Of a stretch of 64,000 nucleotides of DNA, positions 3,471 to 31,960 are shown piece by piece. Positions within the stretch are counted from its first letter, which is position 1, and every line of letters starts with the position of its first letter. Position numbers and translations under genes: made by a program. Source of the DNA: Thermodesulfobacteriota bacterium (lineage in GTDB: Bacteria; Desulfobacterota; BSN033; UBA1163); NCBI GenBank assembly GCA_035625415.1, contig DASPPQ010000070.1, positions 6,052-70,051 on the forward strand. The letters run 5' to 3'. Under the pieces are notes generated by a model that saw nothing but the letters and a program-made list of their open reading frames with translations, was not told the DNA's origin and made no database searches.

Positions 3471-3481
3471 TTGGCCTCCCT

Positions 3482-4904: not shown

Positions 4905-4914
4905 ATTTTTGGTC

Positions 4915-6742: not shown

Positions 6743-6773
6743 CCCTACCCTCTCTGCAGCTAGCCAAACCAGG

Positions 6774-8033: not shown

Positions 8034-8106
8034 ACAAACCTCCTTTCAAAATAGAATGAGTGAGCTAAATGGTATACAGCCTCTTACCCTGTTAAGATGA
8101 TTCCCA

Positions 8107-9282: not shown

Positions 9283-9340
9283 CGTTTCTCCTTTCTCGAT
9301 CCTTAAAAATAGGTTTTCATTTCTTTAAAAATGCCCTCAG

Positions 9341-10489
9341 TCATAACTTCCCTAATAACTCACGGGCAATCGTATTCTTTTCAATCTCCTTCGTCCCTTC
9401 GTAGATTTCCACAATCTTTGCATCCCTGTAGAAGCGTTCGATATCGTAATCCGCGATATACCCGTATCCACCATGGAGCTGAAGGGCCTCATTGGTCACT
9501 TTGACTCCAATCTCTCCGGCTAAATATTTGGCGATGGAAATCAGTTTGGGATCCACCTTCCCATGATCGAGCATCCATGCTGCTTGATAGCAGAGGATCC
9601 GAGCTGCTTCGACCCAGGTAGCCATCTCCGCGATCTTGAATTGGACTGCCTGAAAAGCGCCAAGGACTTGCCCGAACTGTTTCCTCTTCTTCACATATTG
9701 GGCGGCTTTATCCAGAGCGCCTTGTGCAACGCCGACACCCTGAGAGGCGGCGATCACTCGGTTGATGTTGAAGAGTTGCATGATTTGTGAGAACCCTTCT
9801 CCTTCTTTCATTCCGATGAGGTTTTCCTTCGGAACTCTCACGTCATTGAGCCGAATCTCTGCGGTGTCGGACGCCCTGATACCCATCTTCCCGGTAATCT
9901 TTAAGGCACTGAATCCCGGACGATCTGTCTCCACAAGGATCACCCCGAACCTCTTGAGCCTCGATTCTACCTCCGGATTCACCTGACAGAATACGGCGAG
10001 ATAATTGGCAATACTTCCATTGGTGATGAATTGTTTCGATCCGTTGATCACAAAGAAATCCCCGTCTCTTTTTGCTAAGGTTAAAATGGACAGGATATCG
10101 CTTCCGGCATCCGGTTCTGTGATGGCAGTCCCCATAATCGCTTTTCCCTTTGTAAGAGGCGGGAGGTATCTCCGTTTCTGTTCGTCCGTGCCGTAAAGTT
10201 GAATCAATTCAGAGCCGAAGGCCGTCAGCAAAATATTCCCGCATCCAGGATCCACACGCCAAAATTCTTCCATCACCAGTGCAAATTCAAGGAACCCTAA
10301 ACCAAGGCCTCCATATTCTTTTTTGAGAAAGAGACCGATAAATCCCAGTCCGCAGGCCTTCTCCCAAAGGTCCTTTGGAAACTCCTCCCGGCGGTCATAT
10401 TCGCGAGCAACCCCCGGAAACTCTCCTTCAGCAAACTCACGTGCAGCCGCCCGTATTTGTTTTTGCCGATTTGTCAGTTCAAAATCCAC
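9341..10489 (-). CDS. acyl-CoA dehydrogenase
   Basis: 382 aa. ITEPDAGSD, QFITNG, C-terminal IYEGTKEIEKNTIAREL (catalytic Glu region). Confidence 0.9.
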   Translation of the reverse strand: MDFELTNRQKQIRAAAREFAEGEFPGVAREYDRREEFPKDLWEKACGLGFIGLFLKKEYGGLGLGFLEFALVMEEFWRVDPGCGNILLTAFGSELIQLYGTDEQKRRYLPPLTKGKAIMGTAITEPDAGSDILSILTLAKRDGDFFVINGSKQFITNGSIANYLAVFCQVNPEVESRLKRFGVILVETDRPGFSALKITGKMGIRASDTAEIRLNDVRVPKENLIGMKEGEGFSQIMQLFNINRVIAASQGVGVAQGALDKAAQYVKKRKQFGQVLGAFQAVQFKIAEMATWVEAARILCYQAAWMLDHGKVDPKLISIAKYLAGEIGVKVTNEALQLHGGYGYIADYDIERFYRDAKIVEIYEGTKEIEKNTIARELLGKL

Positions 10490-11359: not shown

Positions 11360-12064
11360 TTACAATCCTAAAAAGGCTTTCTTGATGATCTCGGCGTTGA
11401 GGAGCTCTTTGCCGGTTCCCTGGTGGATGGTCCGTCCGGTTTGAAGGACATAGCCGCGGTCGGACAATTCGAGGGATTCGCGAACATTTTGTTCGACGAG
11501 GAGAATCGTCTTCCCTGAATCTTTCAATTTGGCCACGGCCTCCAGCATTTCATCCACAAGTTTCGGCATCAGACCTAAGGAGGGCTCGTCGAGCATGAGA
11601 AGCTTCGGGTTGGACATCAATCCCCTTCCAATGGCGAGCATCTGCTGTTCTCCGCCGCTGAGGGTCCCTCCTTGCTGGGGACGTCTCTCGGCCAGCCGGG
11701 GGAAGAGATGATAAACATATTCCAAATTCTTTTTCACCGCCTCATCATCATCGATGATGTAGGCTCCCAATTCCAAATTTTCCTCAACCGTGAGAGGTCC
11801 AAAAATTAAACGCGCCTCCGGGACATAGGTGATTCCCATATGAACGATATCGGATATAGAAAGACGAGAGATCTCTTGATCCTCAAACCGGATGGAACCC
11901 TTGGAGCAATGGACGGCGCCTGCGATGGCCTTGAGAAGCGTCGATTTCCCTGCGCCGTTTGCGCCGACCACGGAGACCAGTTCTCTCTGGTTCACTTCAA
12001 GGGAGACGTTGTGAATGACGGGGACGCCGCTGTATCGGACTTCGATCTCAGAGACCTTTAGCAT
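11360..12064 (-). CDS. livF: HAAT-family ABC ATP-binding protein (LivF-type), second copy
   Basis: GANGAGKST, LSGGEQQMLAIGR, LMLDEPS. Confidence 0.9.
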   Translation of the reverse strand: MLKVSEIEVRYSGVPVIHNVSLEVNQRELVSVVGANGAGKSTLLKAIAGAVHCSKGSIRFEDQEISRLSISDIVHMGITYVPEARLIFGPLTVEENLELGAYIIDDDEAVKKNLEYVYHLFPRLAERRPQQGGTLSGGEQQMLAIGRGLMSNPKLLMLDEPSLGLMPKLVDEMLEAVAKLKDSGKTILLVEQNVRESLELSDRGYVLQTGRTIHQGTGKELLNAEIIKKAFLGL

Positions 12065-12779
12065 ACTTCTCCCCCAGATAGGCTTTAATCACCCGTTCGT
12101 TCTTCACAATATCCTTCGGCAATCCTTCTGCAATTTTTTCACCGCTATCGAGGACGACGACCCTTTGGGAGATAGGCATAACCACCTCCATCACATGCTC
12201 GATGAGAAACAGGGTCGTCTTCCTTTCTTTGTGAATCCTTTTCAAAAGATCCACCATCTCTTCAGTTTCTTTAGGGTTGAGGCCAGAGGCCACTTCATCC
12301 AGCATCAAGAGTTCGGGCTGGGTCGCAACGGCTCTCGCCAGCCCTATTTTTTTCTGGGCTGCGATTGGCAATTCATTAAGATGATAGCTTTTCACGCTAT
12401 CCAACCCCATAAATCCCAGAATGGCAGCGGCCTCCACTTTTGCAAGATTTCGATCATCGGTCCTGCAAAAAGCGCCAACCATCACATTCTCAAGGACTGT
12501 CATTCCTGTGGTTACCTTTGTGATCTGGAACGTCCTCCCAATCCCTTCCCGGTTGGTCATAAAGGGTTTGAATCCAGTGATCTCCTTTCCTTTAAAGATC
12601 ACCTTCCCGGAATCGGGCTTGTGGTAACCAACGATACAATTAAAGAGCGTCGTCTTGCCCGCGCCATTCGGACCGATCAAACCGATCATTTCACCTTCAT
12701 TGATTTGGAAGGAGACATGGTTGTTGGCCACCACACCGCCAAAGTCTTTGACCAGATCGATCACTTCAAGAAATGCCAT
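12048..12779 (-). CDS. livG: HAAT-family ABC ATP-binding protein (LivG-type), second copy
   Basis: The ATG at 12779 gives MAFLEVIDLVKDFGG. GPNGAGKTT, GIGRTFQ, LMLDEVASG. Confidence 0.9.
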   Translation of the reverse strand: MAFLEVIDLVKDFGGVVANNHVSFQINEGEMIGLIGPNGAGKTTLFNCIVGYHKPDSGKVIFKGKEITGFKPFMTNREGIGRTFQITKVTTGMTVLENVMVGAFCRTDDRNLAKVEAAAILGFMGLDSVKSYHLNELPIAAQKKIGLARAVATQPELLMLDEVASGLNPKETEEMVDLLKRIHKERKTTLFLIEHVMEVVMPISQRVVVLDSGEKIAEGLPKDIVKNERVIKAYLGEKYAKGL

Positions 12780-12904
12780 GCCTAAACGCACCTTCTTTAT
12801 CCACCCCGCCACCTCCTTAGAGACTATGTACCAAGAGGGAGAGACTGTCGGGTAGAAAAGTCTTAGAGCGGCAACACAACCTCCGAAGAAGGAATGGTCG
12901 GTTG

Positions 12905-13897
12905 CTATTTTTTCCGAAACTGCTCAATGATGCCCCAGATTCCTTGAGGTTGATAGGCAGAGACAACCATGATCAGCGCAGCGTAAATCATAAAGTCAAC
13001 GCCGATCAACCCTTTCTGAGCACCCAGCCAGCTTCCGAGAAAGCGATCAAGAGGGACTAAAAAACCTGAGCCGATGATCGGTCCCCACATGGAACCCGCT
13101 CCTCCTAACATGGCCATCAAAGCAATTTTAATTGAGAGGTCCAGATCCATCACAGAGTAGGGATCGATGTAGAGGTTGTAAACAGCCATGAATCCGCCTC
13201 CGACAGCCACAAAAGCCGAGGCGATGGAGTAGGCCTTGATCTTGCACCACCGGGCATCTATGCCCAGGCTTTCTGCAGCCTCTTCATCCTCCTTGATCAT
13301 CCGGAGTTGATAACCCAATTTCGATTTCCGAAACCAGTTCATATAGAAAATGGCGGTATAAAAGAGGGCCATGATGAAATAAAAATAATAGGTATCCGAC
13401 TTAAACTGCATATAGAGAAAATCAGGGTGCTCATGGATGGGAAGTTCTATCCCCTTCGCAGCCCCGACCAGCTTCCAGTTGATAAAAATGTCTTGAAGCA
13501 CCAAGGAGGTGCAGATGGTGGCAATGGCAAAGTAATGGCCCTTCAACCTGAAAAGAGGATACCCGATAATGAAGGAGTATCCAATGGCAATGAGGATGCC
13601 GATTGGCATTGCGGCCCAGAAAGGAATCTTCCACCACACCATGGTCAGAGCGACGGTATAGGCTCCGATCCCAACGTACTGAGCTTTGCCCAGCTCCACC
13701 TGACCCCCATAACCACCGATCGTATTCCATCCCATTCCGAAAAGGGAGAAAAGAAGGAACTGGATCGCCACGGCCTTAACAAAGGATCTAACGCCGAGCC
13801 AGGGAAAGATGAGAAGGAGAAGGGTGAAAATGGCAAACCCAACCTTCTCTGGTTTTGAGAAATCTCCGAAGTCGAAGGCGTCCCTTATTTTTTCCAT
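12905..13897 (-). CDS. livM: HAAT-family ABC permease (LivM-type), second copy
   Basis: GGYGGQVELGKAQYVGIGAY, KEDEEAAESLG. Polytopic. Confidence 0.85.
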   Translation of the reverse strand: MEKIRDAFDFGDFSKPEKVGFAIFTLLLLIFPWLGVRSFVKAVAIQFLLFSLFGMGWNTIGGYGGQVELGKAQYVGIGAYTVALTMVWWKIPFWAAMPIGILIAIGYSFIIGYPLFRLKGHYFAIATICTSLVLQDIFINWKLVGAAKGIELPIHEHPDFLYMQFKSDTYYFYFIMALFYTAIFYMNWFRKSKLGYQLRMIKEDEEAAESLGIDARWCKIKAYSIASAFVAVGGGFMAVYNLYIDPYSVMDLDLSIKIALMAMLGGAGSMWGPIIGSGFLVPLDRFLGSWLGAQKGLIGVDFMIYAALIMVVSAYQPQGIWGIIEQFRKK

Positions 13898-14781
13898 CCA
13901 AACAATCCCTGAGGTCTCAAAACAACGATGATGAAATAGGCAAAATAGACAACGGTGAATTTAAAATGGGGACCGAAGAAATCCCAGCCGGTGAAATGAC
14001 CGACCATTGGGAATAACATCTCGATGATCCCGATCAGGATTCCCGCGAAGAAAGCTCCCTTAATACTCCCGAATCCGCCCATGGCCACCGATGCAAAGGC
14101 GATCATCACGAAGAGGAGGCCCACGGTAGGATAGACATACCAGAAATTGACGATCAAACCTCCAGCAATGCCGACGGTTCCTCCGCCAATCACCCAGGCA
14201 AGGGCATTCATCCGATCGGTTTTGATCCCCATGTAATTGGCCGCTTCCTTGTTGAGTGCCGTGGCGCGCAGGGCTTTCCCCAGTTTGGTTCGATGAAGAA
14301 GGTAGTAGACGACCAGAAATGCAATCAGACTCAATATGGCTGCGGAGAGCTTTGTCCAATCAAGTCTGAAGGGGCCCAATGAGAGGGTCTTTCCAACGAG
14401 CAAACCTTTTTGGATGATCCGGTAATCGATGCCAAAAAGGAATTGGGCCAGATATCTTAAGAAGAGCATCAGGCCGAAGGTTCCGAAGAGCTGAGCAATC
14501 ATCGGACCTCGGAGTAAGTATTTTACCAAACAATAATAGGATGCCAATCCAAGAAGCATTCCCACGATGGCGGAAGCCGGAAGGGTGATCAGGGGATCGA
14601 TATGGAGGAGGAGGCTTGTCCAGTAAGTGGTATACATTCCGATCATCAAGAACTCGCCATGGGCAAAGTTGACGATGTCCATCATGCCAAAGATGATCGT
14701 GAGACCGAGGGCAACCAGGGCAAAAAGAAGCCCCATCAAGATTCCCTGAAGAAGCGCGTCGAGAAGAATCATAAGAGCCAA
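13885..14781 (-). CDS. livH: HAAT-family ABC permease (LivH-type), second copy
   Basis: MALMILLDALLQGILMGLLFALVALGL..NFAHGEF. Polytopic. Confidence 0.85.
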   Translation of the reverse strand: MALMILLDALLQGILMGLLFALVALGLTIIFGMMDIVNFAHGEFLMIGMYTTYWTSLLLHIDPLITLPASAIVGMLLGLASYYCLVKYLLRGPMIAQLFGTFGLMLFLRYLAQFLFGIDYRIIQKGLLVGKTLSLGPFRLDWTKLSAAILSLIAFLVVYYLLHRTKLGKALRATALNKEAANYMGIKTDRMNALAWVIGGGTVGIAGGLIVNFWYVYPTVGLLFVMIAFASVAMGGFGSIKGAFFAGILIGIIEMLFPMVGHFTGWDFFGPHFKFTVVYFAYFIIVVLRPQGLFGWKK

Positions 14782-14797
14782 GGTAAAAAATTATTTA

Positions 14798-14926
14798 AAT
14801 CCCAAATTCCAAATCACAAACCCCAAACAAATTCCAAATTTCAAGTATCGATGACGGAAACTTGTTCATTTCGAATCTTGGTGATTGAAATTTATTTGGA
14901 ACTTGGTGCTTGGAATTTGGAATTTC
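14798..14926. repeat. long imperfect inverted repeat (CCAAAT/ATTTGG-rich arms) between the SBP gene and livH2
   Basis: The left arm aaatcccaaattccaaatcacaaaccccaaacaaattccaaatttcaa pairs with the right arm ttgaaatttatttggaacttggtgcttggaatttggaatttc. Confidence 0.6.
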
Positions 14927-14999
14927 ACAGCAACCGAATTCAAGACGAGCTAAGATTTAAAACGGGGGCCCGATTGATCGATAACCCCCGCTGCTCACT

Positions 15000-16304
15000 T
15001 TACTTCCATCCTGGGAAGGGATAGACCATGTTTGCTGTGGCAAGGTCAAAGGGGTAGATGATTTCGAGTTCGACCTTCCCTTCTTTCGACTGATATTGCC
15101 CGATCAAACCCCTGCCTTTGATGTTCTGGCCGGTGGCATCAAATTTGATCCCGTCCCAGGGCATCACCAGCTCGTAACCTGGAATGTCTAGTTGATTGCA
15201 AGCCTTCTGAATGGCCTTCGGGTCCGTTGAACCCGCCCGGCTCAGGACATAGGCCCATGTTTGAACCCCCACTACCGAACGAGCGGTTGCTCCGGTCAGA
15301 TCGTCTCCGTATTTCTTTTTGTAGAGCTCATTAATCTGGCCGGCGACTCGTTTCACCTTCGCTATTTTTGCAATAAACACGGTCCGTGTCAGGACCCCGT
15401 TGGTATCGGTCCCGAGGGTTTTGGTGAAGTCAGCCATTTCAAACCCCGCATCCTGTCCCCAGAAGAAACGCGGGGAAGCCCTCATCCCCTTCAGGGTTCG
15501 AATCATAAGGAGCGAATCTGAAAGATAAGAAGCAAAGAGCATGGCATCCGGGTTGGCTGCAACCAGGGCCTGTGCCTCAGAAGATAGATCAGGAGAGTTC
15601 CCGGCATAGAGGAGTCCCTTGACAATATTGAATCCGTACTCCTTGGCAAACTTCTCAAGATCCTTGGCAACACTGGCCCCCCATTCCGTGTTTTCGCAGG
15701 CATAGACTAAGTTCTTGAGCTGGTCCTTGGGAACAGCCTTCACCCCCTTGACTTTTCCCTCCGTCAAACCCTTTAAAAGTTCAAAGAGGTCTTTGTCAAA
15801 ATATTCGTCGTGGGGAGTGGTGCGCCAGAACCACTTGAATCCTCTTTTTGTGAGATCGGGAGAAGTCGAGGAGTCATTGATCATTGGAATTCCATAACGC
15901 TCAGCCACCGCACTGACGGTCTTGGTCACGGCGCTTTGATAAGCGCCCATTAATCCAACGACTTTATCATCGAGAATGAGACGTTTGGCCAAATCCGCCC
16001 CACGATCCGGCTCTCCTCGGGAGTCGGCAAAGATCAGGTTGATCTTGGCATTCCCTAAGGTTGGAATGCCTCCCCATTTCGACATGAGAACATCGACATT
16101 AGGATTTTTATTGTTTACCAGGTTCTCTGCCGTGAATTCCGCGGCCCTTTGCAGGTCTCTTCCAATCGTTGCCAAGGCCCCGGAAAGAGGATAAATCACA
16201 CCAATCTTGATCTCCTTCTCAGCCGCCAATAGAGGGGAGCAAACCATCAAGATAGATAAGATCAAAACGGATAGAATAATGAGAAATCTCTTGGTTGTTT
16301 TCAT
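15000..16304 (-). CDS. periplasmic substrate-binding protein, LivK/type-I PBP family, Sec signal
   Basis: The ATG at 16304 is preceded by AAGGAGG. Signal peptide MKTTKRFLIILSVLILSILMVCSPLLA, then IKIGVIYPLSGALA. Confidence 0.85.
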   Translation of the reverse strand: MKTTKRFLIILSVLILSILMVCSPLLAAEKEIKIGVIYPLSGALATIGRDLQRAAEFTAENLVNNKNPNVDVLMSKWGGIPTLGNAKINLIFADSRGEPDRGADLAKRLILDDKVVGLMGAYQSAVTKTVSAVAERYGIPMINDSSTSPDLTKRGFKWFWRTTPHDEYFDKDLFELLKGLTEGKVKGVKAVPKDQLKNLVYACENTEWGASVAKDLEKFAKEYGFNIVKGLLYAGNSPDLSSEAQALVAANPDAMLFASYLSDSLLMIRTLKGMRASPRFFWGQDAGFEMADFTKTLGTDTNGVLTRTVFIAKIAKVKRVAGQINELYKKKYGDDLTGATARSVVGVQTWAYVLSRAGSTDPKAIQKACNQLDIPGYELVMPWDGIKFDATGQNIKGRGLIGQYQSKEGKVELEIIYPFDLATANMVYPFPGWK

Positions 16305-16626
16305 ATAAGCCTCCTTATACCAAAGAATGGGAATTTCCAAAATGTTAATTAAAATCCTTGTTCTTCTTCACCTCCTTCTTTCTTAACTGCCTTCCGTTTC
16401 TCAATTGGCCGTAATTTTATCCATTCAGATCCTGTATGTCAATAATTCAATTTGAGAGATTTTCAAAATGTTATGAATTCTCTGATTGCACAGATGTAAA
16501 TACTTTTCGAGAATAAAGAAAAATCAGTGTAATCAAGAGGGTACACTAGTTTCTTCCTGCCGCTCCCAATTTGGAGTTGCCTTTCTTTTCCTTTCTTTGT
16601 AAGATGAGACCGGATAAGGGGAAGCG

Positions 16627-19720: not shown

Positions 19721-20404
19721 TTATTTCTCTTTTGGGGGATCTCCGGTCTCGGTCGATAAAAGGTAAGCTAAGTTGTCTAAGATCGTGGTGAAAAAGACAT
19801 CCTTCACTACAAAACCAGTTGGGACGGCAACTTGTGCCGGCGCGAAGTTAAGAATTCCTCTCACCCCTGCCTCCGCCAAAAGATTGGCTACCCCCTGAGC
19901 CTCTGAAGGAGGGGTTGTGATGACCCCGATCTCAATCTTCCTTTCCTTTACCACCTCTTTGAGCCGGTTGATGTGAAAGATCTCGGCTGGCTTGCCCAAC
20001 TTTTCCGAGACTCTTCCAATCACCCGAGGGGGGTCGATATCGAAGGCCGCAACAATCTTATAATTCTTCTTTAGAAAATCCTTATAAGATAGGAGGGCAG
20101 CGCCCAAATTTCCGATGCCGATCAGCGCCATCTTCCACTCTTTATTCGATCCCAATATCTTCTTAATATTATTGAGCAAATCCTCCACATAATAACCCAC
20201 ACCCCGAATCCCAAATTCACCGAAGTAGGCCAGGTCCTTTCTTACCTGTGCAGCATTCACAACGCATTTCTTGGCCAGTTGAGCAGAAGAAACAACCTTC
20301 TCTCCCCTTTCGTCCATCTCTTCCAAACACCGGGAGTACCTTGATAATCTCCTGATGGTGGCCTCGGGAATTTTCTTGTACTTCAGTTTTGTGACCCCTT
20401 TCAC
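19721..20404 (-). CDS. rex: redox-sensing transcriptional repressor Rex
   Basis: IPEATIRRLSRYSRCLE winged-helix region and Rossmann motif ALIGIGNLGAALL. The start is uncertain: the in-frame GTG at 20404 is preferred over the ORF-track TTG at 20446, because that TTG is part of a TTGACA -35-like hexamer and the operator lies between the two. Confidence 0.8.
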   Translation of the reverse strand: MKGVTKLKYKKIPEATIRRLSRYSRCLEEMDERGEKVVSSAQLAKKCVVNAAQVRKDLAYFGEFGIRGVGYYVEDLLNNIKKILGSNKEWKMALIGIGNLGAALLSYKDFLKKNYKIVAAFDIDPPRVIGRVSEKLGKPAEIFHINRLKEVVKERKIEIGVITTPPSEAQGVANLLAEAGVRGILNFAPAQVAVPTGFVVKDVFFTTILDNLAYLLSTETGDPPKEK

Positions 20405-20406
20405 AA
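20389..20406. promoter_or_regulatory. Rex operator TTGTGA-N6-TCACAA
   Basis: Plus strand reads ttgtga-cccctt-tcacaa, a perfect match to both half-sites of the Rex consensus TTGTGAA-N4-TTCACAA, located at the 5' end of rex. Confidence 0.65.
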
Positions 20407-20574
20407 ATTTTGAGAAAAAAATATTAAATTCTAATGCTTTTGTCAAGCATATCTTGAAGATGCTTTGCCCCTCGTTCTTACGCTCATGGTTTTCGACCGG
20501 CTCGACAGCGCGAAGGCTTCGGCACGAGATCAGGCCGTGAATTCAGACGAACACAACACCTTCGAGGGCTGCCT

Positions 20575-22758
20575 TCACATCCTTCCCTGTGCAATGTCTT
20601 GCTTCCTCCTGGCGATCTGTTCGATTGCCTCGTTCAGCCTGCGATTGGCAAATTCAAATAGCTCTTCCGCATACTCCAGATTGTGGGCTCCCTTTCCATT
20701 CTTGGCCAAATTGTAATTGAACTCCGCTTCTCCATACAACTTTCGATAGACAAAGGTGTGACCTCCCCGGCGATCAATCCGATCAATTTCTTCTTTGACC
20801 TGAGCCAATTTGGGGTCCAGCTCCCTCAGCATCTTCTCGGAGGTTGCCTTCCATCGGACAGCCATCTCCCCATAGCTCTGGTCATGACACTCGATGCAGC
20901 GTTTCTTGATCGCATCGAACGTCCCCTTCTTCTTGGCCAAGACATTCTGGTGACAATCAACACATTCTACCACACCCAGCTTGTTGCTCGGCCTCTCCTT
21001 GACACCGATGCCTCCCTTTCCCTGGATGAGTCTTTTTATGTTCACATGGCAATCTTCGCATTTGATTTTCTTAATCCCCCTCCCGTGGTGGCATCCAGCA
21101 CAAATTTTCATGAAGGTTTTGCCGTGATTTTCGCGCGGAGGGTGGCAATCCAGACACTTCTGCCCGTTACCTACCACGTGGGTCGCATGAGAAAATTTGA
21201 TATCGTTAAAAGGAACGGTCCGTCTCTCTATGCCAACATGACAGAGGCTTGTACAACTCATTCGGGTTTGAAATTCCTGTGGTTTGTAATCCTTATCGAT
21301 AATCGCCAACGCTTGTTCCGTCTTATTGCTCGCTGCGTTGAGGAGCTTGAAGGCATATTCGATATTGTGAACTCCCTTGCCCAGAAGGACGAAGCTATAA
21401 TTATGTCGGGCTTCGTTAAGAAGATTTTGAGCCCTTTTAAAAGGGGGGGTGCTTCCATGCGCCTTTTCAAACTCGTACAGTGCGTTCTGAACATTAAAAA
21501 CCCTCTGGTTCGTTTCATTCTCGGCTCTGGCAAGGAGGGCCTTCCATTGCTTCAGGGTTTCATCGAATCCCTCTCCATGGCAGTCGACACAGGCCTCACC
21601 GATGGCTCTTTCAACATAATTCGAGGTATGAAGTGCAGCCCGGCTTTCATCGCCCCTCCGATGGCAGGCGATACAGTCCACATTCGTCGTAAACATGAGG
21701 CTGGGAGAGTCCGGGACGCCAATCCCTCCGGTCCCGCGGTACAACTCTCTTGGACCGAGATGCATCTCCTTGCTATGGCATTTGTCACAGTTGGAGGGGG
21801 TATGAGTAATGGTGGGAATCTGTCCAATCTCATGGCGAAGAAAAGTATGGCAGCTTGAGCACTCGATCTTATGGTCGGTCACATGCTTCTGATGTATGAA
21901 TTGCGAGGTATACTTGGTCGTCAGTAAGACAGGCTCATTATGGCATTCGACACATTTTCCCTCCGGTACATGGCCGTCTCCCTGAACCACGCTGAGATGA
22001 CATTTCTCACAGGTTACCCCTCTCGCGATATACTTTCTGTGATTGAAGTTCCAACCTTTGACCTGAATATCCCCTTTCGGCTCGACATGGCAGGAAGTGC
22101 AGCCCCCGATGGCACACGAAATACACTCCTCCTCCCCTTTTGGACCCGCCTTATAGTAGTGACAGATGAAGCAGTTGATTTCGTGAACCGTGAGATGCAA
22201 CCCCTGAACGAGTTGGGCGTGGCAGCTTGCGCAGCGGAGGTTCATCCCCCTTCTCAGCTCGCCCAAATGTTTTCCGTGTGAGAAGGCCACATTCTTATAG
22301 ATCATATTCCCCTGGAGGTCATCGATCTTATGACATCCCTTTTGGAGGCAGCTCGTATCGCTAATCTGTGCGTGAGGCGTGCTCGGCCTCTTCCCCGACA
22401 AGAAGTAAGCCAGCGACACCTGGCCGTCCACCCATTTGCCCCTGAGATGGTTAAGAAATCCGGGCTCATAATGGCATTTCGTGCAGGCCACATGCCGATG
22501 ACTGGAGGTCCTCCACGAGTCCATATAGACATTCATCTGGTGACAGAGGCCGCAGAAGGTAGAGCTCTCCGTAAACTTGAGAAGACCTACGAGGATGACA
22601 AGAAAAACAAGGATACAAAAAACGAGGAATACCTTGATCGCCTTGAAATGAGCTTGAGTGCCTTTCTTCGCCTCATTGAAGAAATCGATCCAAAAGATCT
22701 TGACCAAGTCATAAAGATTTCTTATAGTTCCCATATGAACGCTCCCACCAAACCCCAA
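20575..22758 (-). CDS. membrane-anchored multihaem cytochrome c, 16 CxxCH, NapC/NirT-like N-terminal module
   Basis: One TM helix (VFLVFCILVFLVILVGLL), then FCGLCHQM...CTKCH. I counted 16 canonical CxxCH sites plus CLQKGCH and CTSLCH variants. Confidence 0.85.
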   Translation of the reverse strand: MGFGGSVHMGTIRNLYDLVKIFWIDFFNEAKKGTQAHFKAIKVFLVFCILVFLVILVGLLKFTESSTFCGLCHQMNVYMDSWRTSSHRHVACTKCHYEPGFLNHLRGKWVDGQVSLAYFLSGKRPSTPHAQISDTSCLQKGCHKIDDLQGNMIYKNVAFSHGKHLGELRRGMNLRCASCHAQLVQGLHLTVHEINCFICHYYKAGPKGEEECISCAIGGCTSCHVEPKGDIQVKGWNFNHRKYIARGVTCEKCHLSVVQGDGHVPEGKCVECHNEPVLLTTKYTSQFIHQKHVTDHKIECSSCHTFLRHEIGQIPTITHTPSNCDKCHSKEMHLGPRELYRGTGGIGVPDSPSLMFTTNVDCIACHRRGDESRAALHTSNYVERAIGEACVDCHGEGFDETLKQWKALLARAENETNQRVFNVQNALYEFEKAHGSTPPFKRAQNLLNEARHNYSFVLLGKGVHNIEYAFKLLNAASNKTEQALAIIDKDYKPQEFQTRMSCTSLCHVGIERRTVPFNDIKFSHATHVVGNGQKCLDCHPPRENHGKTFMKICAGCHHGRGIKKIKCEDCHVNIKRLIQGKGGIGVKERPSNKLGVVECVDCHQNVLAKKKGTFDAIKKRCIECHDQSYGEMAVRWKATSEKMLRELDPKLAQVKEEIDRIDRRGGHTFVYRKLYGEAEFNYNLAKNGKGAHNLEYAEELFEFANRRLNEAIEQIARRKQDIAQGRM

Positions 22759-22882
22759 TTCTACAATCTTTTAAAATTATTTCAAGTGAAACTTTACCCT
22801 GCTGAGGCTTTTATTTCAGGAAAAAGGAGCGGGGCCTAAAGGGGGGGGATGAGGAACCGCTTCTTTTTCCTCCTCTTCAAAA

Positions 22883-23545
22883 TTGGGAAGCCATTTAGTG
22901 AAAAGATTTCTTGGACTCAACCGAAGATGGGTCTTCTTGTCAATCTCCTCATTGTGTCTGATCCTCTTGCTCGGAAAGCTCGATTCTCTTTTTGCTCAAG
23001 TGGAAGAAAACCCCCTGGAAAAGAGGGAGCAAAAACTAAAGGATTTTCGCGAAAAGAGGGACCGGTTCTTTAAGGAAAACCCTCGATCCCCCTTAAAGGA
23101 GAAGGATCGGAAAGAATTTAATGGCCTTATTTACTACACGGTCGACCTTAAGTATGCGATGACCGGATTCATCGAAAAATACCCTACCGAACCTAAGCCT
23201 CTGTACGTCACGCTTCCCACAAACAAAGAAGCGGGCAGAAAATACGTGAAATACGGCCGATTCAAATTTAAATTGGATGGGAAAGGATACGTGCTCCAAA
23301 TTTACCGACCCTTAGCGAGCGACGAGCTTTTCCTTCCCTTCAAGGATAAGACTTCAGGGATAGAAACCTATGAGAAGGGACGCTATCTCTATATCGAGGC
23401 GATGCCCGGAGGAAGGGTGTTGATCGATTTCAATCGCGCCTACAATCCGTTCTGCCACTTTAATGAGAAATATACCTGCCCCTTTGCCCCGGAGGAGAAC
23501 CGGCTTGACATCGCCATTCGGGCGGGGGAAAAGCGCTTTCGATAA
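22883..23545 (+). CDS. DUF1684-like secreted protein
   Basis: Signal-like N-terminus. C-terminal YNPFCHFNEKYTCPFAPEENRLDIAIRAGEK matches my recollection of the DUF1684 signature. Start uncertain (TTG 22883 or GTG 22898). Confidence 0.5.
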   Translation: MGSHLVKRFLGLNRRWVFLSISSLCLILLLGKLDSLFAQVEENPLEKREQKLKDFREKRDRFFKENPRSPLKEKDRKEFNGLIYYTVDLKYAMTGFIEKYPTEPKPLYVTLPTNKEAGRKYVKYGRFKFKLDGKGYVLQIYRPLASDELFLPFKDKTSGIETYEKGRYLYIEAMPGGRVLIDFNRAYNPFCHFNEKYTCPFAPEENRLDIAIRAGEKRFR

Positions 23546-23759: not shown

Positions 23760-25730
23760 TCAAACAAGAAATTCCCAAGCAATCAGGAAGACGCAGACAA
23801 GCCCGATGGCCAGCATGGCAAATCCCATGGTTGTTGAGAAGAGGTCTGTTCCCACGCTGGGGTATTTATCTCGATAGGTCTCCAATCTCTTCTCCGCCAG
23901 CAGGCGATGATACTGTTCCTGCCGCTCCTCCACCAGTTCGTATTTTGGGATTCTTCCTGTGAAGATCACCGTATCCATTGGAAACTTCGAAGGCCGAAAA
24001 TGGGTGTTAAAGAAATGGACTGTGAAGATGAAGCCCGAAGCCAGCAGCGCTTCATCCGAGTGAACGATCGTTGCGATATTGAGGATCCATCCAGGCAAAA
24101 AGATGGTGAAGAATTGTGGAAGCCAGAGCATCAATCCTGAGAGCCCGATAGCGAACATTCCCCAGAAGACAGCGAGAAAATCGAATTTTTCCCAATAAGT
24201 CCACCGGTCGAACTGGGGTTTCGGTCCTTTGTTAAAGAACCAACGGATCATCCCGATGATGTCTTGAATGTCTTTCCAACGAGGACAGAGTGAATCCGGG
24301 CCGAAAAGTCTCTGCAAGGGATTGGGATTCCCCGGCAGCTTCTTGAAGAAGAGGAAATAGACGATGTAGGCCATGGTCGTTCCAAAATAGGCAAACGTGA
24401 TGGCGGCACAAGTGCGATGAATCAAACCCGCGCTCCTGGCCCCTCCTAAGAAGTGCATCAGACCAATGGCCCAGGGGGCATGGGAAAATTTTAATGGAAG
24501 ACCGGTCAGGACGAGCCCGATAAAAGTCACCATCATCGTGAAATGGAGCACGATATCAAAAGACCTAAATCGGCGATAGATATGGCCTGCTTCAGCCGGT
24601 TTTACATGCTGCGGGAAGAAAACTCCCTTGGCCCTCAGTTCCCTCTTCTCCCAGAAGTCCTTTCGCCACCAAAGAAGGGTGTGAAACCAAAAGATTCCAA
24701 ACACGGAAACGAGGAGGCCGGTCATCAAAACGAATGTTCCGTAGAGCACGGGCTCCCTCTCCGGATCTTTATGGGTCGCATGGGCAATCCATTTCACGAA
24801 GTTGGCATTGGCCCTTGTGTGGCACTTGCCACAGGTCTCTACCAGCCGCTTTTCCGAGATGAGAGATTTTGGATTATCCGGAGGCAGAATGTTGTGAAAC
24901 CCATGGCAGTCCGCACAACCCGCCACCAATCTCGGGTAACCCAGATGCTCCACCTTTCCATGATAACTTTCGTAGTAGGTTTGAGTGGCAATCAGAAAAA
25001 CCTTGTTTCGCTCCATCATCTCCTTGTCTGCATGACATTTCTGACAGACCTCTGTATGGAACTCCTTCCGGAATTCCACCGTCTTGGGCTCGTCCCCTTT
25101 CAGTAAAGGAATTTTATGGAGGCCGTGGCAATCGCTGCAGGTGGCGGAATCTGGATTTCCGTCGAGGACCGCTTTGCCGTGGACGCTTTGAGAATAACCG
25201 TCATCCGAGTGGCAGGTCGTACATGTCTGGATCACCCGGACTTTATCTTCCTTCCACGGAGTCAACGCGTGGATGTCTTTATGGCAGTCTTTACACTGGA
25301 TGTCGTTAATAAAATGAGCGCTTGCATAATGCTCCGTCCCTTCCTTCTTATGACATCGATGGCAGGTAACCGGTTCTGCATGAATTCTTGCCCCTTTTGT
25401 TCTGGCATGGGCTTTGACGTCTGTGATGTCGTAGTGGCAACTGTTACACGAGTTGGCCCCATGAACGGATTGGGCAAACTTCCTTTCGCTGATCTTAGTG
25501 TGGCAACCCAAGCATTCAGAGTTATCAATACACTCATAGCAAAATTCCCGACCCTTGACGATGAACTTTTCCCCTTTTTTGGCGGGTTCGGAAGGTTTGG
25601 TCACCGCAGCGGGGTTAGCACCTCCTTTTTCTAGACCGGATGTCACTGCCCACAATGCGCCTGAGCCTAAAGAGAACCAAACAGAGATGCTGAGACAAAT
25701 GAGGATTGATCTTTTAAACTTCGCTTTCAT
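23760..25730 (-). CDS. fusion of a 9-haem periplasmic cytochrome c and an integral-membrane b-type-like domain (CbcL-like)
   Basis: Signal peptide from the ATG at 25730. 9 CxxCH in the first ~330 aa, then about 6 hydrophobic helices with conserved His residues ([42 protein letters not shown]). Confidence 0.8.
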
Positions 25731-25887
25731 AATTCCCCGAAAATTCAAAAAATGACTCCGCCCTCTTGAAATGAGAATGAGCGGTATTCCGTCAAAATTT
25801 AAAGAAAATTAAAATTTTGGGATTTTCATTGCGGGAAAAGTGTGATTTTTTTAACACAATCAAGAATTGAAGTCAATATGACCAAAT

Positions 25888-27668: not shown

Positions 27669-27899
27669 ATGGATAAGGCAGTGGTAACATTAAAAGGTCA
27701 GGTTGTTATTCCGTCTAAACTTCGGCGCAAGTTTGGCATTAAGAAGGGAACGCAAGTCTCCCTTTTCGAGAGAGATGGTGAAATCGTTATAAAACCAATA
27801 ACTGACGAATACATTCGGAGTATGGCTGGAATGGCCGGCACGAAGGGAAGGCTACTTAAAGCCTTAAAGGAAGAGGAGGCAAAGGAGCGCGAGCTATGA
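27669..27899 (+). CDS. vapB: AbrB/SpoVT-fold antitoxin (VapB-type)
   Basis: TLKGQVVIPSKLRRKFGIKKGTQV looped-hinge-helix motif. ATGA overlap with the downstream PIN gene. Confidence 0.8.
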   Translation: MDKAVVTLKGQVVIPSKLRRKFGIKKGTQVSLFERDGEIVIKPITDEYIRSMAGMAGTKGRLLKALKEEEAKEREL

Positions 27900-28300
27900 A
27901 GGCAGTCCCTAGGGTCCTAGACTCGTATAGCCTTATCGCTTACCTGGAGAAGGAGGAGGGAGCGGACAAAACGATTGAAGTTTTTAGGGTAGCAAGGGAT
28001 TCTGGAAAAGCCCTCCTTCTCTCTGTAGTGAATTGGGGAGAAGTCTATTATATTACTCTGAGAGAAGCGGGTCGGGAGCGGACGGAAGCCGTAGCTCATC
28101 TCATCTCAACCCTTCCCATCCAAATTATCCCTGCCGATTTGGAACTTACCAGGCAGGCAGCTGAGTTTAAGGCCACTAAAAGAATGTCTTATGGCAATTG
28201 CTTTGCTGCTGCCCTGGCGAAACTTCGAAAAGCTGAATTGGTCACAGGGGATGCCCAGTTTAGGCAGGTTGAAGGTGATGTAAAAATCCTTTGGATATAA
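27896..28300 (+). CDS. vapC: PIN-domain ribonuclease toxin (VapC-type)
   Basis: Acidic residues spaced as in PIN domains: VLDSYSLIAYL, NWGEVYY, VTGDAQF. 134 aa. Confidence 0.75.
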   Translation: MKAVPRVLDSYSLIAYLEKEEGADKTIEVFRVARDSGKALLLSVVNWGEVYYITLREAGRERTEAVAHLISTLPIQIIPADLELTRQAAEFKATKRMSYGNCFAAALAKLRKAELVTGDAQFRQVEGDVKILWI

Positions 28301-31192: not shown

Positions 31193-31960
31193 ATGAGCTA
31201 CAACAACATCACACTGACGACGAAGGATTTTGTGAGCACCATTACGCTTAACCGTCCCCCGACCAACTCTATAAACTTCGGTATACGCGAAGAGCTGGAT
31301 CGAGCGATCACCGAGTTAGAGAAGAGCAAGGATACCAGGGTGGTGATCATCACCGGTGCGGGTGAAAAGGGCTTCAGCGCAGGCATGGACGTGTCGGACA
31401 TAGCGAACATCGAGAAAGGGCCGAATGGCAATGATGTATTCAACCGCATCGAACGGTTCGGCAAGCCGGTCATCGCTGCCATCAACGGATATGCTCTGGG
31501 CGGCGGATGCGAGCTTGCGCTGGTATGCCATTTCCGGCTTATGACGGACAATCCCAAGGCGGTCATCGGCTGCCCGGAAGTGAATCTGGGCATTACGCCC
31601 GGCTGGGGCGGCATACAGCGCCTCCCGCGGCTTCTGGGCAAGCCGAAGGCGCTCGACATGATATTGTTCAGCAAAAGGTTGTCGGGGCAGGAAGCCTTAG
31701 CGATTGGCCTTGTGGACCGCGTGGTCCCCGCAGCAGAATTGATGAAGGAGGCCATGGCCTTCGCACTGACGCTGACCAAGCGGCCGCCTCTTGCCGTAAA
31801 TGCGGTGCTTACTGGTATGAGCCTGGGACTTGAGAAGGGCCTCGAAGAAGGCATCCGCGTCGACCGGGAGTGGTCAAGAAAGCTCGCCCAGAGTCAGGAT
31901 GCACGGGAAGGATTCACTGCATTCTTTGAGAGGCGTGAACCGGTATTCAAGGGGGAATAG
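31193..31960 (+). CDS. enoyl-CoA hydratase/isomerase (crotonase family)
   Basis: ITGAGEKGFSAGMD, AAINGYALGGGCELALVC, PEVNLGITPGWGG. GC-rich relative to its neighbours. Confidence 0.9.
   Translation: MSYNNITLTTKDFVSTITLNRPPTNSINFGIREELDRAITELEKSKDTRVVIITGAGEKGFSAGMDVSDIANIEKGPNGNDVFNRIERFGKPVIAAINGYALGGGCELALVCHFRLMTDNPKAVIGCPEVNLGITPGWGGIQRLPRLLGKPKALDMILFSKRLSGQEALAIGLVDRVVPAAELMKEAMAFALTLTKRPPLAVNAVLTGMSLGLEKGLEEGIRVDREWSRKLAQSQDAREGFTAFFERREPVFKGE

What the first reader, a model, noticed from the sequence alone, without database searches (positions are those of the whole stretch)
20575..22758. Single-polypeptide NapC/NirT-type membrane anchor fused to a 16-haem wire with an internally duplicated helical module
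The 727-aa ORF has one N-terminal TM helix followed directly by the NapC/NirT/NrfH-type signature (FCGLCHQM ... ACTKCH). It then carries 14 more canonical CxxCH sites, giving 16 by my count, plus two non-canonical candidates (CLQKGCH, CTSLCH). Two non-haem helical inserts end in near-identical motifs: NYSFVLLGKGVHNIEYAFKLL and NYNLAKNGKGAHNLEYAEELF. The C-terminal half therefore looks like an internal duplication. Classical NapC/NirT quinol dehydrogenases carry 4-5 haems. A 16-haem version would combine a quinol-oxidising head and a long periplasmic electron conduit in one protein. I cannot assign it to a named, characterised family from memory.
Basis: partly seen in the sequence, partly recalled or inferred. 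Interest (0 to 1): 0.7.

Follow-up and report, generated by a model that had tools for sequence, protein, structure and literature searches.

The report
Membrane-anchored 18-haem cytochrome, NrfH-NrfA-like fusion
This gene encodes a membrane-anchored protein that probably takes electrons from the membrane quinone pool and passes them along a built-in chain of 18 haem groups; it belongs to a widespread family that nobody has studied, in uncultured soil and peat bacteria that live by breaking down fatty acids.

Summary
The ORF is on the minus strand. Its likely start is the ATG at 22734, giving 719 aa. It has 18 haem sites, not 16: the CX4CH and CX3CH sites are invariant in 59 relatives of about 30% identity and are plain CxxCH in some of them.

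The N-terminus is an NrfH-type quinol-dehydrogenase module: a signal-anchor helix, CxxCHxM, and a Lys aligned with NrfH Lys82 (Pfam NNT above threshold; Foldseek TM 0.68 over all of NrfH). Three connector haems follow, then two homologous modules (hhalign E 7e-28). These modules are the pentahaem-plus-three-helix-bundle unit of OcwA, NrfA and MccA (profile versus OcwA 6I5B, E 8e-27).

The conserved His, Met and Lys residues exactly balance the haems, there is no CxxCK, and no catalytic residues are conserved. I therefore favour a menaquinol-oxidising electron conduit over an enzyme (confidence about 0.6; nothing biochemical is shown).

The family is large (330 clusters at 50% identity with E<=1e-30) and spans several phyla. 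It carries only generic names, and I found no paper describing it. In this clade the gene always lies between a CbcL-like cytochrome gene and rex.

Verdict: a new variant of a known kind. Interest is moderate.

The parts
20575..22734 (-). CDS of the 719-aa octadecahaem c-type cytochrome (stop codon included). The ORF lister extends it to the TTG at 22758.
   Evidence: (homologues are exactly 719 aa)
22758..22785 (-). Promoter-like element TTGAAA-16-TAGAAT about 24 nt upstream of the ATG. This is only a consensus match and is no more frequent than chance in this region.
   Evidence: 6 sites found, 4.9 expected
22651..22731 (-). Residues 2-28: a charged amphipathic N-terminal helix, presumably cytoplasmic. 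It is absent from the 698-aa paralogue found in relatives.
22579..22638 (-). Residues 33-52, IKVFLVFCILVFLVILVGLL: the single transmembrane signal-anchor helix.
   Evidence: Hydropathy. It aligns with the NrfH TM helix. Relatives have long cytoplasmic extensions in front of it.
22210..22569 (-). Residues 56-175: the NrfH-like tetrahaem module with haems 1-4. Motifs: CGLCHQM (CxxCHxM, Met67), CTKCH, CLQKGCH, CASCH. Lys100 aligns with D. vulgaris NrfH Lys82.
22330..22350 (-). Haem site 3, CLQKGCH (CX4CH).
   Evidence: Invariant Cys/Cys/His. CX4CH in 45 and CxxCH in 14 of 59 relatives. P0112 has CLQCH here.
21970..22209 (-). Residues 176-255: the c7/c3-like trihaem connector, haems 5-7 (CFICH, CTSCH, CEKCH). 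It includes a clade-specific CISCA loop.
21295..21969 (-). Residues 256-480: module 1, an OcwA/NrfA-type pentahaem unit (haems 8-12: CVECH, CSSCH, CDKCH, CIACH, CVDCH) plus a three-helix bundle ending in GKGVHNIEYAFKLL (21340-21381).
   Evidence: phmmer against OcwA 6I5B, E 6e-14. Profile E 8e-27, with NrfA, MccA and HAO hits. Helices H390-426, 430-452 and 454-479 at pLDDT above 90.
20578..21294 (-). Residues 481-719: module 2, a duplicate of module 1 with six haems (13-18: CTSLCH, CLDCH, CAGCH, CEDCH, CVDCH, CIECH) plus a three-helix bundle ending in GKGAHNLEYAEELF (20656-20697). The extra haem CEDCH559-563 sits where module 1 has the invariant His325.
   Evidence: hhalign E 7e-28
21238..21255 (-). 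Haem site 13, CTSLCH (CX3CH). Its position corresponds to CVECH of module 1, OcwA haem 5 and NrfA haem 1.
   Evidence: CX3CH in 41 and CxxCH in 18 of 59
20980..20982 (-). Lys585. It occupies the position of the conserved Met347 of module 1 (PSLM against PSNK). This position is Met in 46 of 59 family members and Lys in all 30 close homologues. It is a candidate His/Lys axial ligand.
23760..25748 (-). Conserved upstream neighbour with CbcL-type architecture: a signal peptide, 9 CxxCH motifs, and a C-terminal cytochrome b domain of about 5 TM helices. It is probably a second quinone-pool/cytochrome c oxidoreductase.
   Evidence: The CbcL architecture is as described in bioRxiv 10.1101/2023.05.03.539133.
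19721..20446 (-). Conserved downstream neighbour: the redox-sensing repressor Rex. The true start is probably about 20 codons inside the listed ORF.
20389..20406 (+). Rex-operator-like palindrome TTGTGACCCCTTTCACAA (1 mismatch), just upstream of rex and downstream of the promoter-like site at 20418-20446. No such site lies upstream of the cytochrome gene.

Best explanation
The gene encodes a type-II membrane-anchored octadecahaem c-type cytochrome that faces the periplasm. It is built from four parts.

1. An NrfH-type menaquinol-dehydrogenase head with haems 1-4. Haem 1 has the CxxCHxM motif, and Lys100 corresponds to NrfH Lys82.
2. A c7/c3-like trihaem connector with haems 5-7.
3. A first OcwA/NrfA-type module with five haems.
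4. A second, homologous module with six haems.

Each module ends in a three-helix bundle whose invariant GxHN histidine probably ligates a haem.

Proposed mechanism: menaquinol is oxidised at haem 1 at the periplasmic face of the inner membrane, and the protons are released to the periplasm. The electrons then hop along a continuous chain of haems, all six-coordinate except haem 1, to periplasmic or extracellular acceptors. The protein is therefore an electron-transfer conduit and not a nitrite-type enzyme. It would be a very long analogue of CymA or ImcH, laid out like a single-chain NrfH-(NrfA)2 assembly.

The host is a fatty-acid-degrading, Syntrophaceae-like Thermodesulfobacteriota bacterium. 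In that setting the protein would give electrons from beta-oxidation that reach menaquinone a downhill exit, alongside the adjacent CbcL-like cytochrome.

Shown: the motifs, the homologies, the duplication, the conservation pattern and the synteny. Inferred: quinol oxidation, direction of electron flow, continuity of the haem chain, haem coordination, and the partners.
For: - Haem count. There are 18 haem sites, conserved as a set: 56 of 59 relatives of about 30% identity have exactly 18.
- NrfH head. Pfam NNT scores 33.3 against a threshold of 24.1. The NCBIfam NrfH model gives E 1e-17. The family profile matches 2J7A_C at E 2e-13, and the match includes the TM helix. Foldseek gives TMt 0.68 and rmsd 3.2 A over 146 columns. 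Met67 is 93% conserved. Lys100 aligns with NrfH Lys82 and is present in 44 of 59 relatives, with 10 gaps.
- Modules. Against OcwA the single sequence gives E 6e-14 and the profile E 8e-27. NrfA matches at 7e-8, MccA at 1e-6 and HAO at 3e-5. The duplication has E 7e-28. The AF2 model has pLDDT 85 and pTM 0.68, with two long three-helix bundles.
- Conduit rather than enzyme. There is no CxxCK motif. Apart from Cys and His, the only invariant residues are W74, F151, G252, G334, N457 and N685, so no catalytic Arg, Tyr or Lys is conserved. The ligand census balances: 15 conserved non-motif His, plus Met347, plus Met or Lys at position 585, give 17 distal ligands for the 17 haems other than the NrfH-type haem 1.
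- Anchor rather than signal peptide. Relatives carry cytoplasmic N-terminal extensions before the helix, for example a cNMP-binding domain in P0189.
- Context. The gene order CbcL-like / 18-haem gene / rex is conserved across about 39 MAG loci. Beta-oxidation genes lie in the same window.
Against: - There is no biochemical or expression evidence of any kind.
- Haem coordination cannot be read from a model without haems. OcwA also has enough histidines for all-bis-His coordination, yet it has two open haems (PMC6703420). The invariant His325 aligns with OcwA His380, which lies near the open haem 5 without binding it. Haem 8 could therefore be high-spin.
- Every structurally characterised relative of the modules is an enzyme or shows some enzyme activity.
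- No outer-membrane conduit or other cytochrome gene lies within the 64-kb window, so the acceptor is unknown.
- The direction of electron flow is not constrained by sequence.
Confidence: 0.6

Rival explanations
1. A fused NrfHA-type enzyme. The NrfH head feeds electrons to one or two catalytic haems with an open coordination site in the OcwA/NrfA-like modules, most likely haem 8 (CVECH) or haem 13 (CX3CH). These occupy the positions of NrfA haem 1 and OcwA haem 5. The enzyme would reduce a soluble periplasmic substrate such as nitrite, hydroxylamine, sulfite or another oxyanion.
For: - The modules are homologous to OcwA, NrfA, ONR, MccA and HAO.
- OcwA reduces nitrite and hydroxylamine through open CxxCH haems without a CxxCK motif (PMC6703420).
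- His325 corresponds to OcwA His380 beside the open haem.
- The unusual CX3CH motif sits exactly at the position equivalent to the catalytic haem in module 2.
- NrfH naturally docks onto a NrfA dimer, and this protein mimics that arrangement in one chain.
Against: - There is no CxxCK motif.
- OcwA's distal non-bonding His381 is Leu326 here.
- No Arg, Tyr or Lys typical of NrfA or MccA active sites is conserved across the family.
- The conserved ligands balance the haems exactly.
- The CX3CH site is a plain CxxCH in 18 of 59 relatives.
- In module 2 the His325-equivalent is used as the proximal ligand of an extra haem.
Confidence: 0.2
2. The same wire running in reverse. The protein would be a menaquinone reductase that collects electrons from periplasmic or extracellular donors (reduced cytochromes, a syntrophic partner, Fe(II), humics) and delivers them to the quinone pool. 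This is what Qrc, Hmc and Tmc do, and it is how CymA-type proteins work in iron oxidisers.
For: - NapC/NirT proteins are reversible in principle.
- A paralogue in relatives sits directly after a Psr/Phs-like molybdoenzyme operon that has its own NrfD anchor. That arrangement fits electron exchange between periplasmic redox modules and the quinone pool in either direction.
- The profile also matches the 16-haem HmcA.
Against: - The host context is fatty-acid oxidation, where the bottleneck is disposing of electrons that have reached menaquinone.
- The NrfH-type CxxCHxM/Lys site is characterised as a quinol-oxidising site.
- Nothing in the sequence fixes the direction.
Confidence: 0.12
3. The hydrophobic helix is a cleaved signal peptide, and the mature protein is a soluble periplasmic 18-haem store ('capacitor') with no quinol-oxidising role.
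For: The protein has a single N-terminal hydrophobic segment. Many large multihaem cytochromes, such as HmcA and GSU1996, are soluble, and the profile matches them.
Against: - The helix starts at residue 33, is about 20 residues long, and has no AxA cleavage site.
- Sequence and fold homology to NrfH includes the TM helix.
- Relatives carry 140-900 aa N-terminal extensions, including a cNMP-binding domain, in front of the helix. That is incompatible with a signal peptide.
- ImcH, a related anchored cytochrome, is not cleaved (bioRxiv 10.1101/2023.05.03.539133).
Confidence: 0.04

Closest known systems
NrfH (Desulfovibrio vulgaris; PDB 2J7A, 2VR0), the NapC/NirT/NrfH family of quinol dehydrogenases
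   Same: A single N-terminal TM helix. Four haems in about 120 residues. Haem 1 with CxxCHxM. A Lys at the position of the essential Lys82. Whole-domain fold match (TM 0.68). Pfam PF03264 above threshold.
   Different: NrfH is 159 aa and works as a separate subunit bound to a NrfA dimer. Here the module is the first fifth of a 719-aa chain. Its third haem site is CX4CH. It scores 64 bits against a cut-off of 134 for the NrfH equivalog model. No nrfA gene is adjacent.
OcwA (Thermincola potens, PDB 6I5B) and OmhA (Carboxydothermus ferrireducens, PDB 6QVM)
   Same: The best solved relative of the haem modules. It shares the five-haem unit, the PSxM(F/Y)...C..CH stretch, and a three-helix bundle with G-V-H-N-x-x-x-A-x-K-L-L. 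OcwA is itself proposed to be an electron-transfer terminal reductase.
   Different: OcwA is a secreted cell-surface nonahaem protein of a Gram-positive bacterium, with a c554-like N-terminal half and two open haems flanked by His-His. The protein here is anchored in the inner membrane, carries the module twice, has only one His of the His-His pair (the other is Leu), and lacks the c554-like half.
NrfA pentahaem nitrite reductase and the octahaem relatives ONR, MccA and HAO
   Same: Remote but significant profile similarity over the last haems and the long helices (E 7e-8 to 3e-5). The domain order NrfH then NrfA-like x2 mirrors the NrfH:NrfA2 complex.
   Different: No CxxCK motif. No conserved catalytic Tyr, His or Arg, and no Ca site residues that I could detect. 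No Pfam Cytochrom_C552 hit. The helices are shorter.
ImcH (Geobacter sulfurreducens GSU3259), CymA, and TorC/DorC
   Same: These are NapC/NirT-type anchors that oxidise menaquinol and pass electrons to periplasmic carriers. ImcH and TorC show that the tetrahaem core can be extended with extra haems in one polypeptide.
   Different: ImcH has three TM helices, seven haems and a His/Gln haem 1. TorC has five haems and CymA has four. None of them contains an OcwA/NrfA-type module or a three-helix bundle.
HmcA, the 16-haem high-molecular-weight cytochrome of Desulfovibrio (PDB 1GWS, 1H29, 2E84, 1Z1N)
   Same: A very large single-chain multihaem cytochrome linked to membrane redox complexes. The profile matches it at c3-like stretches (E about 1e-13).
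   Different: HmcA is soluble, built from repeated c3 domains, has no NrfH head or helical bundles, and is encoded in the hmc operon.

Membership tests
NapC/NirT/NrfH cytochrome c family (Pfam PF03264) | Score above the Pfam gathering threshold for the N-terminal region | tested here: met
   33.3 bits against 24.1, residues 34-100
NapC/NirT/NrfH cytochrome c family (Pfam PF03264) | A single N-terminal transmembrane anchor helix that is not cleaved | tested here: met
   The hydrophobic helix spans residues 33-52 and has no AxA site. It aligns with the NrfH TM helix. Relatives have cytoplasmic extensions in front of it. Cleavage itself cannot be tested in silico.
NapC/NirT/NrfH cytochrome c family (Pfam PF03264) | Four c-type haem sites in a compact periplasmic domain with the NrfH fold | tested here: met
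   Sites at residues 61, 84, 129 (CX4CH) and 168. Foldseek against 2VR0_F/2J7A_C gives TMt 0.68 and rmsd 3.2 A over 146 columns.
NrfH proper (NCBIfam TIGR03153 equivalog) | Score above the equivalog cut-off | tested here: not met
   64.4 bits against a cut-off of 134.2. It is NrfH-like but not an NrfH orthologue.
NrfH proper (NCBIfam TIGR03153 equivalog) | CxxCHxM haem 1 motif and the conserved Lys of the quinol site | tested here: met
   CGLCHQM, with Met67 93% conserved. Lys100 aligns with D. vulgaris NrfH Lys82.
NrfH proper (NCBIfam TIGR03153 equivalog) | Encoded next to nrfA and acting as the small subunit of a NrfHA complex | tested here: not met
   There is no nrfA in the window or in 39 related loci. 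The only other multihaem ORF is CbcL-like.
NrfA cytochrome c nitrite reductase | A CxxCK catalytic haem motif and a Pfam Cytochrom_C552 match | tested here: not met
   No CxxCK motif. No PF02335 hit at E<=0.01. Only remote profile similarity, E 7e-8.
OcwA/OmhA family | A pentahaem C-terminal unit plus a three-helix bundle with the GVHN motif | tested here: met
   phmmer E 6e-14 and profile E 8e-27 against 6I5B, covering haems 5-9 and the bundle. It is present twice.
OcwA/OmhA family | A c554-like N-terminal tetrahaem half, and two open haems each flanked by a His-His pair | tested here: not met
   The match covers only OcwA residues about 250-508. His325 corresponds to OcwA His380, but His381 is Leu326 here. 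Whether haem 8 is open could not be determined.
OcwA/OmhA family | A secreted cell-surface protein of Gram-positive bacteria | tested here: not met
   The protein has an N-terminal membrane anchor and comes from Thermodesulfobacteriota MAGs.
ImcH family | Three TM helices, seven haems, and His/Gln coordination of haem 1 | tested here: not met
   One TM helix, 18 haem sites and a CxxCHxM haem 1. The ImcH features are taken from bioRxiv 10.1101/2023.05.03.539133. No direct sequence comparison was possible.
Any of the above, as a functional quinol dehydrogenase | Menaquinol oxidation and covalent attachment of all predicted haems | not testable with these tools
   This needs expression, haem quantification and a menadiol/HQNO assay.

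The most novel reading that the evidence does not exclude
The protein is a single-chain equivalent of the whole NrfH-(NrfA)2 respiratory complex. Its two tandem modules pack through their helix bundles as an intramolecular pseudo-dimer.

Two readings follow. Either it retains an open haem and is a new kind of quinol-dependent reductase for an unidentified substrate, or it forms a wire long enough to span most of the periplasm. In the second case it would give syntrophic fatty-acid oxidisers a direct route from menaquinol to extracellular acceptors or partner cells without soluble carriers.

In this clade, a Met-to-Lys switch at the ligand position of the terminal haem (Lys585) would retune the exit potential of the wire.
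Probability: 0.25. Interest if true: 0.75.

Novelty: new variant of a known kind. Interest (0 to 1): 0.55.

Why it matters
Inner-membrane quinol:cytochrome oxidoreductases (CymA, ImcH, CbcL, CbcBA) are the gates of extracellular and interspecies electron transfer. Only a few types have been characterised.

This family joins an NrfH-type gate directly to one or two OcwA/NrfA-type haem modules in a single polypeptide of 12 or 18 haems. It is abundant in metagenomes from several phyla and has never been studied.

In syntrophic fatty-acid degraders from soils and peat it could be the missing outlet for electrons that have reached the menaquinone pool. That would bear on carbon turnover and methane production.

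The family also adds to the 'grafting and pruning' picture of multihaem cytochrome evolution. It shows an NrfH-to-NrfA-like fusion, a tandem module duplication, the gain of one haem at a former ligand position, and interchange between CxxCH, CX3CH and CX4CH at fixed sites.

Tried and rejected
- Self-BLAST for the duplication found nothing. A profile-profile comparison was needed.
- The first AlphaFold run, on 30 close homologues, was unusable, with pLDDT 48. The second run, on 59 diverse relatives, gave pLDDT 85. Model coordinates are not exposed, so I could not measure haem-site distances, assign ligands by geometry, or check how the two helix bundles pack.
- Foldseek E-values were all above 0.03. 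I used only the ranking and the NrfH TM-score, as support for the sequence evidence.
- The genome-contig scan with the diverse alignment failed because no conserved stretch was available. The scan with the close alignment reached only the same clade, so I could not look for homologues in model organisms such as Geobacter, or compare directly with ImcH or CbcL.
- Rex regulation of the cytochrome gene: the only good operator lies in front of rex itself, and none lies upstream of the cytochrome gene at 3 or fewer mismatches. Matches across the whole window are no more frequent than chance.
- N-terminal extensions of fused relatives as 'Rosetta stone' clues: they have no Pfam domains except one cNMP-binding domain. 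This says nothing about function but does help with topology.
- Six literature searches found no description of the family (one search failed on syntax). The library holds open-access papers only.
- Considered and rejected: HmcA-type, MtrC-type and c7-polymer assignments. These Pfam and PDB hits come from generic c3/c7 haem-packing stretches.
Full report
**1. The observation**

The ORF at 20575..22758 is real and lies on the minus strand. The ORF lister starts it at a TTG (727 aa). The ATG at 22734 is the better start. It has a GGGAG ribosome-binding site 8 nt upstream. It gives 719 aa, which is exactly the length of the closest homologues. The TTG also falls inside a promoter-like -10 hexamer.

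The translation contains 16 CxxCH motifs plus CLQKGCH (CX4CH) and CTSLCH (CX3CH). Shuffling the protein's own residues gives a mean of 0.14 CxxCH and a maximum of 4. The only strongly hydrophobic segment is residues 33-52.

**2. Haem count**

I aligned 59 family members that share only about 30% identity with the query. Every Cys and His of the 16 canonical sites is invariant, and so are those of the two non-canonical sites. Site 3 is CX4CH in 45 members and CxxCH in 14. Site 13 is CX3CH in 41 and CxxCH in 18. Fifty-six of the 59 carry exactly 18 motifs (and P0112, which has CLQCH at site 3). The protein should therefore bind 18 haems, not 16.

**3. N-terminal module**

- Pfam Cytochrom_NNT scores 33.3 bits against a gathering threshold of 24.1.
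- The NCBIfam NrfH model gives E 1e-17 but stays below its equivalog cut-off, 64 against 134 bits.
- The family profile hits D. vulgaris NrfH (2J7A_C) at E 2e-13, and the match runs through the TM helix.
- Foldseek aligns the AlphaFold model (pLDDT 85.3, pTM 0.68) to the whole of NrfH, with TM 0.68 and rmsd 3.2 A over 146 columns.
- Haem 1 has the NrfH-specific CxxCHxM motif, and Met67 is 93% conserved. Lys100 aligns with NrfH Lys82. The ImcH preprint (10.1101/2023.05.03.539133) cites this lysine as essential for quinol-dependent activity.

The helix is an anchor and not a signal peptide. It begins at residue 33, is about 20 residues long, and has no AxA site. Several relatives carry 140-900 residues in front of it, once including a cNMP-binding domain.

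**4. The two 'helical inserts'**

Profile-profile comparison of residues 225-480 against 481-719 gives probability 99.8%, E 7e-28 and 29% identity over 187 columns. The duplication is real.

The unit is homologous to the C-terminal half of OcwA (PDB 6I5B; E 6e-14 with the single sequence and 8e-27 with the profile). It is more distantly related to NrfA (7e-8), MccA (1e-6) and HAO (3e-5). Foldseek ranks OmhA, octahaem nitrite reductase, NrfA and MccA at the top, although with weak E-values.

According to PMC6703420, that half of OcwA is a NrfA-like pentahaem core (haems 5-9) followed by a three-helix bundle. Its His-Asn pair is invariant in both copies.

Module 1 carries five haems (8-12). Module 2 carries six (13-18). 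The extra CEDCH in module 2 sits exactly where module 1 has the invariant His325.

The overall layout is NrfH (4 haems) + connector (3) + module 1 (5) + module 2 (6). This resembles a single-chain version of the NrfH:NrfA2 assembly.

**5. Conduit or enzyme?**

Several points favour a pure electron-transfer role.

- There is no CxxCK motif.
- Outside the haem Cys and His residues, only W74, F151, G252, G334, N457 and N685 are invariant. No NrfA- or MccA-type catalytic residues are conserved.
- The conserved potential axial ligands balance the haems. There are fifteen non-motif His (79, 153, 156, 180, 232, 281, 284, 301, 325, 456, 516, 519, 537, 550, 684), plus Met347, plus position 585. That gives 17 ligands for the 17 haems other than the NrfH-type haem 1.

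Position 585 is Met in 46 of 59 members. It is Lys in all 30 close homologues of the window protein, which suggests a His/Met to His/Lys change in this clade (inference).

There are also caveats.

- OcwA has enough histidines too, yet it keeps two haems open.
- His325 aligns with OcwA His380, a non-bonding histidine next to the open haem 5. OcwA His381 is Leu here.

I put the conduit at about 0.6 and a fused enzyme at about 0.2.

**6. Distribution and naming**

An exhaustive HMMER search of 1.84 billion cluster representatives finds 1621 hits at E<=1e-3 and 330 at E<=1e-30. They fall into three groups:

- single-module forms of about 450-500 aa with 12 haem sites;
- two-module forms of about 660-745 aa with 18 sites;
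- longer variants with 20-30 sites.

Sources include Thermodesulfobacteriota and Syntrophaceae MAGs, Planctomycetota (including strain ZRK34), Acidobacteriota and Ca. Tectomicrobia. The cultured iron reducer Deferrisoma camini also has one (WP_084319013.1), at 41% identity by HMMER and 38% in the MAFFT alignment. The names are generic: 'cytochrome c3 family protein', 'NapC/NirT family cytochrome c', 'nitrate/TMAO reductase-like tetraheme cytochrome c subunit'.

I found no paper describing the family. I searched. I also read two surveys of multihaem cytochromes, PMC11492766 and 10.1101/2025.05.29.656830, and they do not mention it.

**7. Genomic context**

All 39 related loci in GTDB species representatives come from uncultured Thermodesulfobacteriota, Syntrophaceae or Syntrophorhabdus MAGs. 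Many are from Danish soils and SPRUCE peat.

The gene order is conserved: prmA, then a CbcL-like gene, then sometimes a UshA-like/c554 fusion gene on the opposite strand, then usually a DUF1684 gene on the opposite strand, then the 18-haem gene, then rex, then a class-III aminotransferase gene. The window has this order, without the UshA-like gene.

In about ten loci a 698-aa paralogue lacking the N-terminal extension follows a Psr/Phs-like molybdoenzyme operon (TtrB-like FeS subunit, NrfD, PhsA-like subunit) and a small NrfH-like cytochrome gene. A 34%-identical relative (L005) has the same arrangement. Other distant members sit next to Rieske/cytochrome b genes or c554-like cytochrome genes. 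The family is thus repeatedly embedded in quinone-pool and periplasmic redox modules.

The window itself lacks the molybdoenzyme operon. It contains only one other multihaem gene, the CbcL-like neighbour, which has 9 CxxCH motifs and a cytochrome b domain. Elsewhere the window encodes beta-oxidation enzymes and branched-chain amino-acid transporters, which fits a syntrophic fatty-acid degrader.

A near-perfect Rex operator lies in front of rex. None lies in front of the cytochrome gene.

**8. Mechanism proposed**

Menaquinol binds near haem 1 at the periplasmic membrane surface, as in NrfH. Protons leave to the periplasm, and electrons move through haems 1-4, the trihaem connector and the two modules to an exit haem, and then to soluble cytochromes or extracellular acceptors.

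For an organism that must dispose of electrons from acyl-CoA dehydrogenation that have entered the menaquinone pool, this would be a thermodynamically downhill outlet. It would work in parallel with, or at a different potential from, the neighbouring CbcL-like protein. ImcH and CbcL split the work in this way in Geobacter. All of this is inference from homology and context.

**9. Verdict**

The protein is not a member of any characterised family beyond the NapC/NirT/NrfH superfamily at its N-terminus. It is a new architectural variant of the known class of membrane-anchored multihaem quinol dehydrogenases, and it belongs to a large uncharacterised family. Interest is moderate (0.55).

Noticed in passing
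window 23760-25748 (-): A CbcL-type fusion protein: a signal peptide, nine CxxCH motifs, and a C-terminal cytochrome b561/FdnI-like membrane domain of about five hydrophobic segments. It lies upstream of the 18-haem gene in most related loci that extend that far. Two candidate quinone-pool/cytochrome c oxidoreductases are therefore kept side by side.
   Followed up: partly
window 20389-20406 (+), with promoter-like site 20418-20446 (-): A near-perfect Rex operator, TTGTGACCCCTTTCACAA, sits just upstream of rex. This suggests autoregulation. It also suggests that the listed TTG start of rex (20446) is too far upstream, since the Rex HMM match begins at about residue 21.
   Followed up: partly
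window 22883-23545 (+): A DUF1684 gene is transcribed divergently from the cytochrome gene. It is a conserved neighbour in most related loci. Its function is unknown.
   Followed up: no
L002:4336-9982, and likewise L001, L003, L019, L030, L032, L034, L041, L043, L005: In relatives, a 698-aa paralogue of the 18-haem cytochrome follows an operon encoding a 265-aa unknown protein, a TtrB-like FeS protein, an NrfD-type membrane subunit, a PhsA-like molybdopterin subunit (below all equivalog cut-offs), and a small NrfH-like multihaem cytochrome of 193-273 aa. This operon is absent from the window.
   Followed up: partly
L002:1505-2920 (-), and most close loci; absent from the window: A 471-aa fusion of a UshA-like metallophosphoesterase ('UshA-like (seleno)protein', NF041198, E 3e-127) with a cytochrome c554-like domain lies between the CbcL-like gene and DUF1684 in relatives.
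   Followed up: no
window 22111-22125 (-), residues 204-208: A clade-specific CISCA (CxxC without His) lies in a low-confidence loop just before haem 6. It is present only in close homologues. It could be a disulfide or a degenerate haem site.
   Followed up: partly
window 20980-20982 (-), Lys585: The conserved Met ligand position of module 2 is Lys throughout the window's clade: Met in 46 of 59 distant relatives, Lys in all 30 close ones. The terminal haem may be His/Lys coordinated.
   Followed up: partly
window 1866-10489 (-) and 31193-31960 (+): A beta-oxidation gene set: an AMP-dependent ligase, thiolase, acyl-CoA dehydrogenase, a TetR regulator, and enoyl-CoA hydratase. Two branched-chain amino-acid ABC transporter operons are also present (3482-8033 and 11360-16340).
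   Followed up: partly
window 27896-28300 (+) and 32051-33775 (-): A PIN-domain protein that may be a toxin (the small ORF upstream of it was not examined), and a 574-aa DUF6178 protein (E 2e-148).
   Followed up: no
protein P0189, a 923-aa family member from elsewhere: A relative carries a cytoplasmic cyclic-nucleotide-binding domain (residues 42-121) in front of the NrfH-type anchor. Other relatives have N-terminal extensions of 330-900 aa without any known domain.
   Followed up: partly
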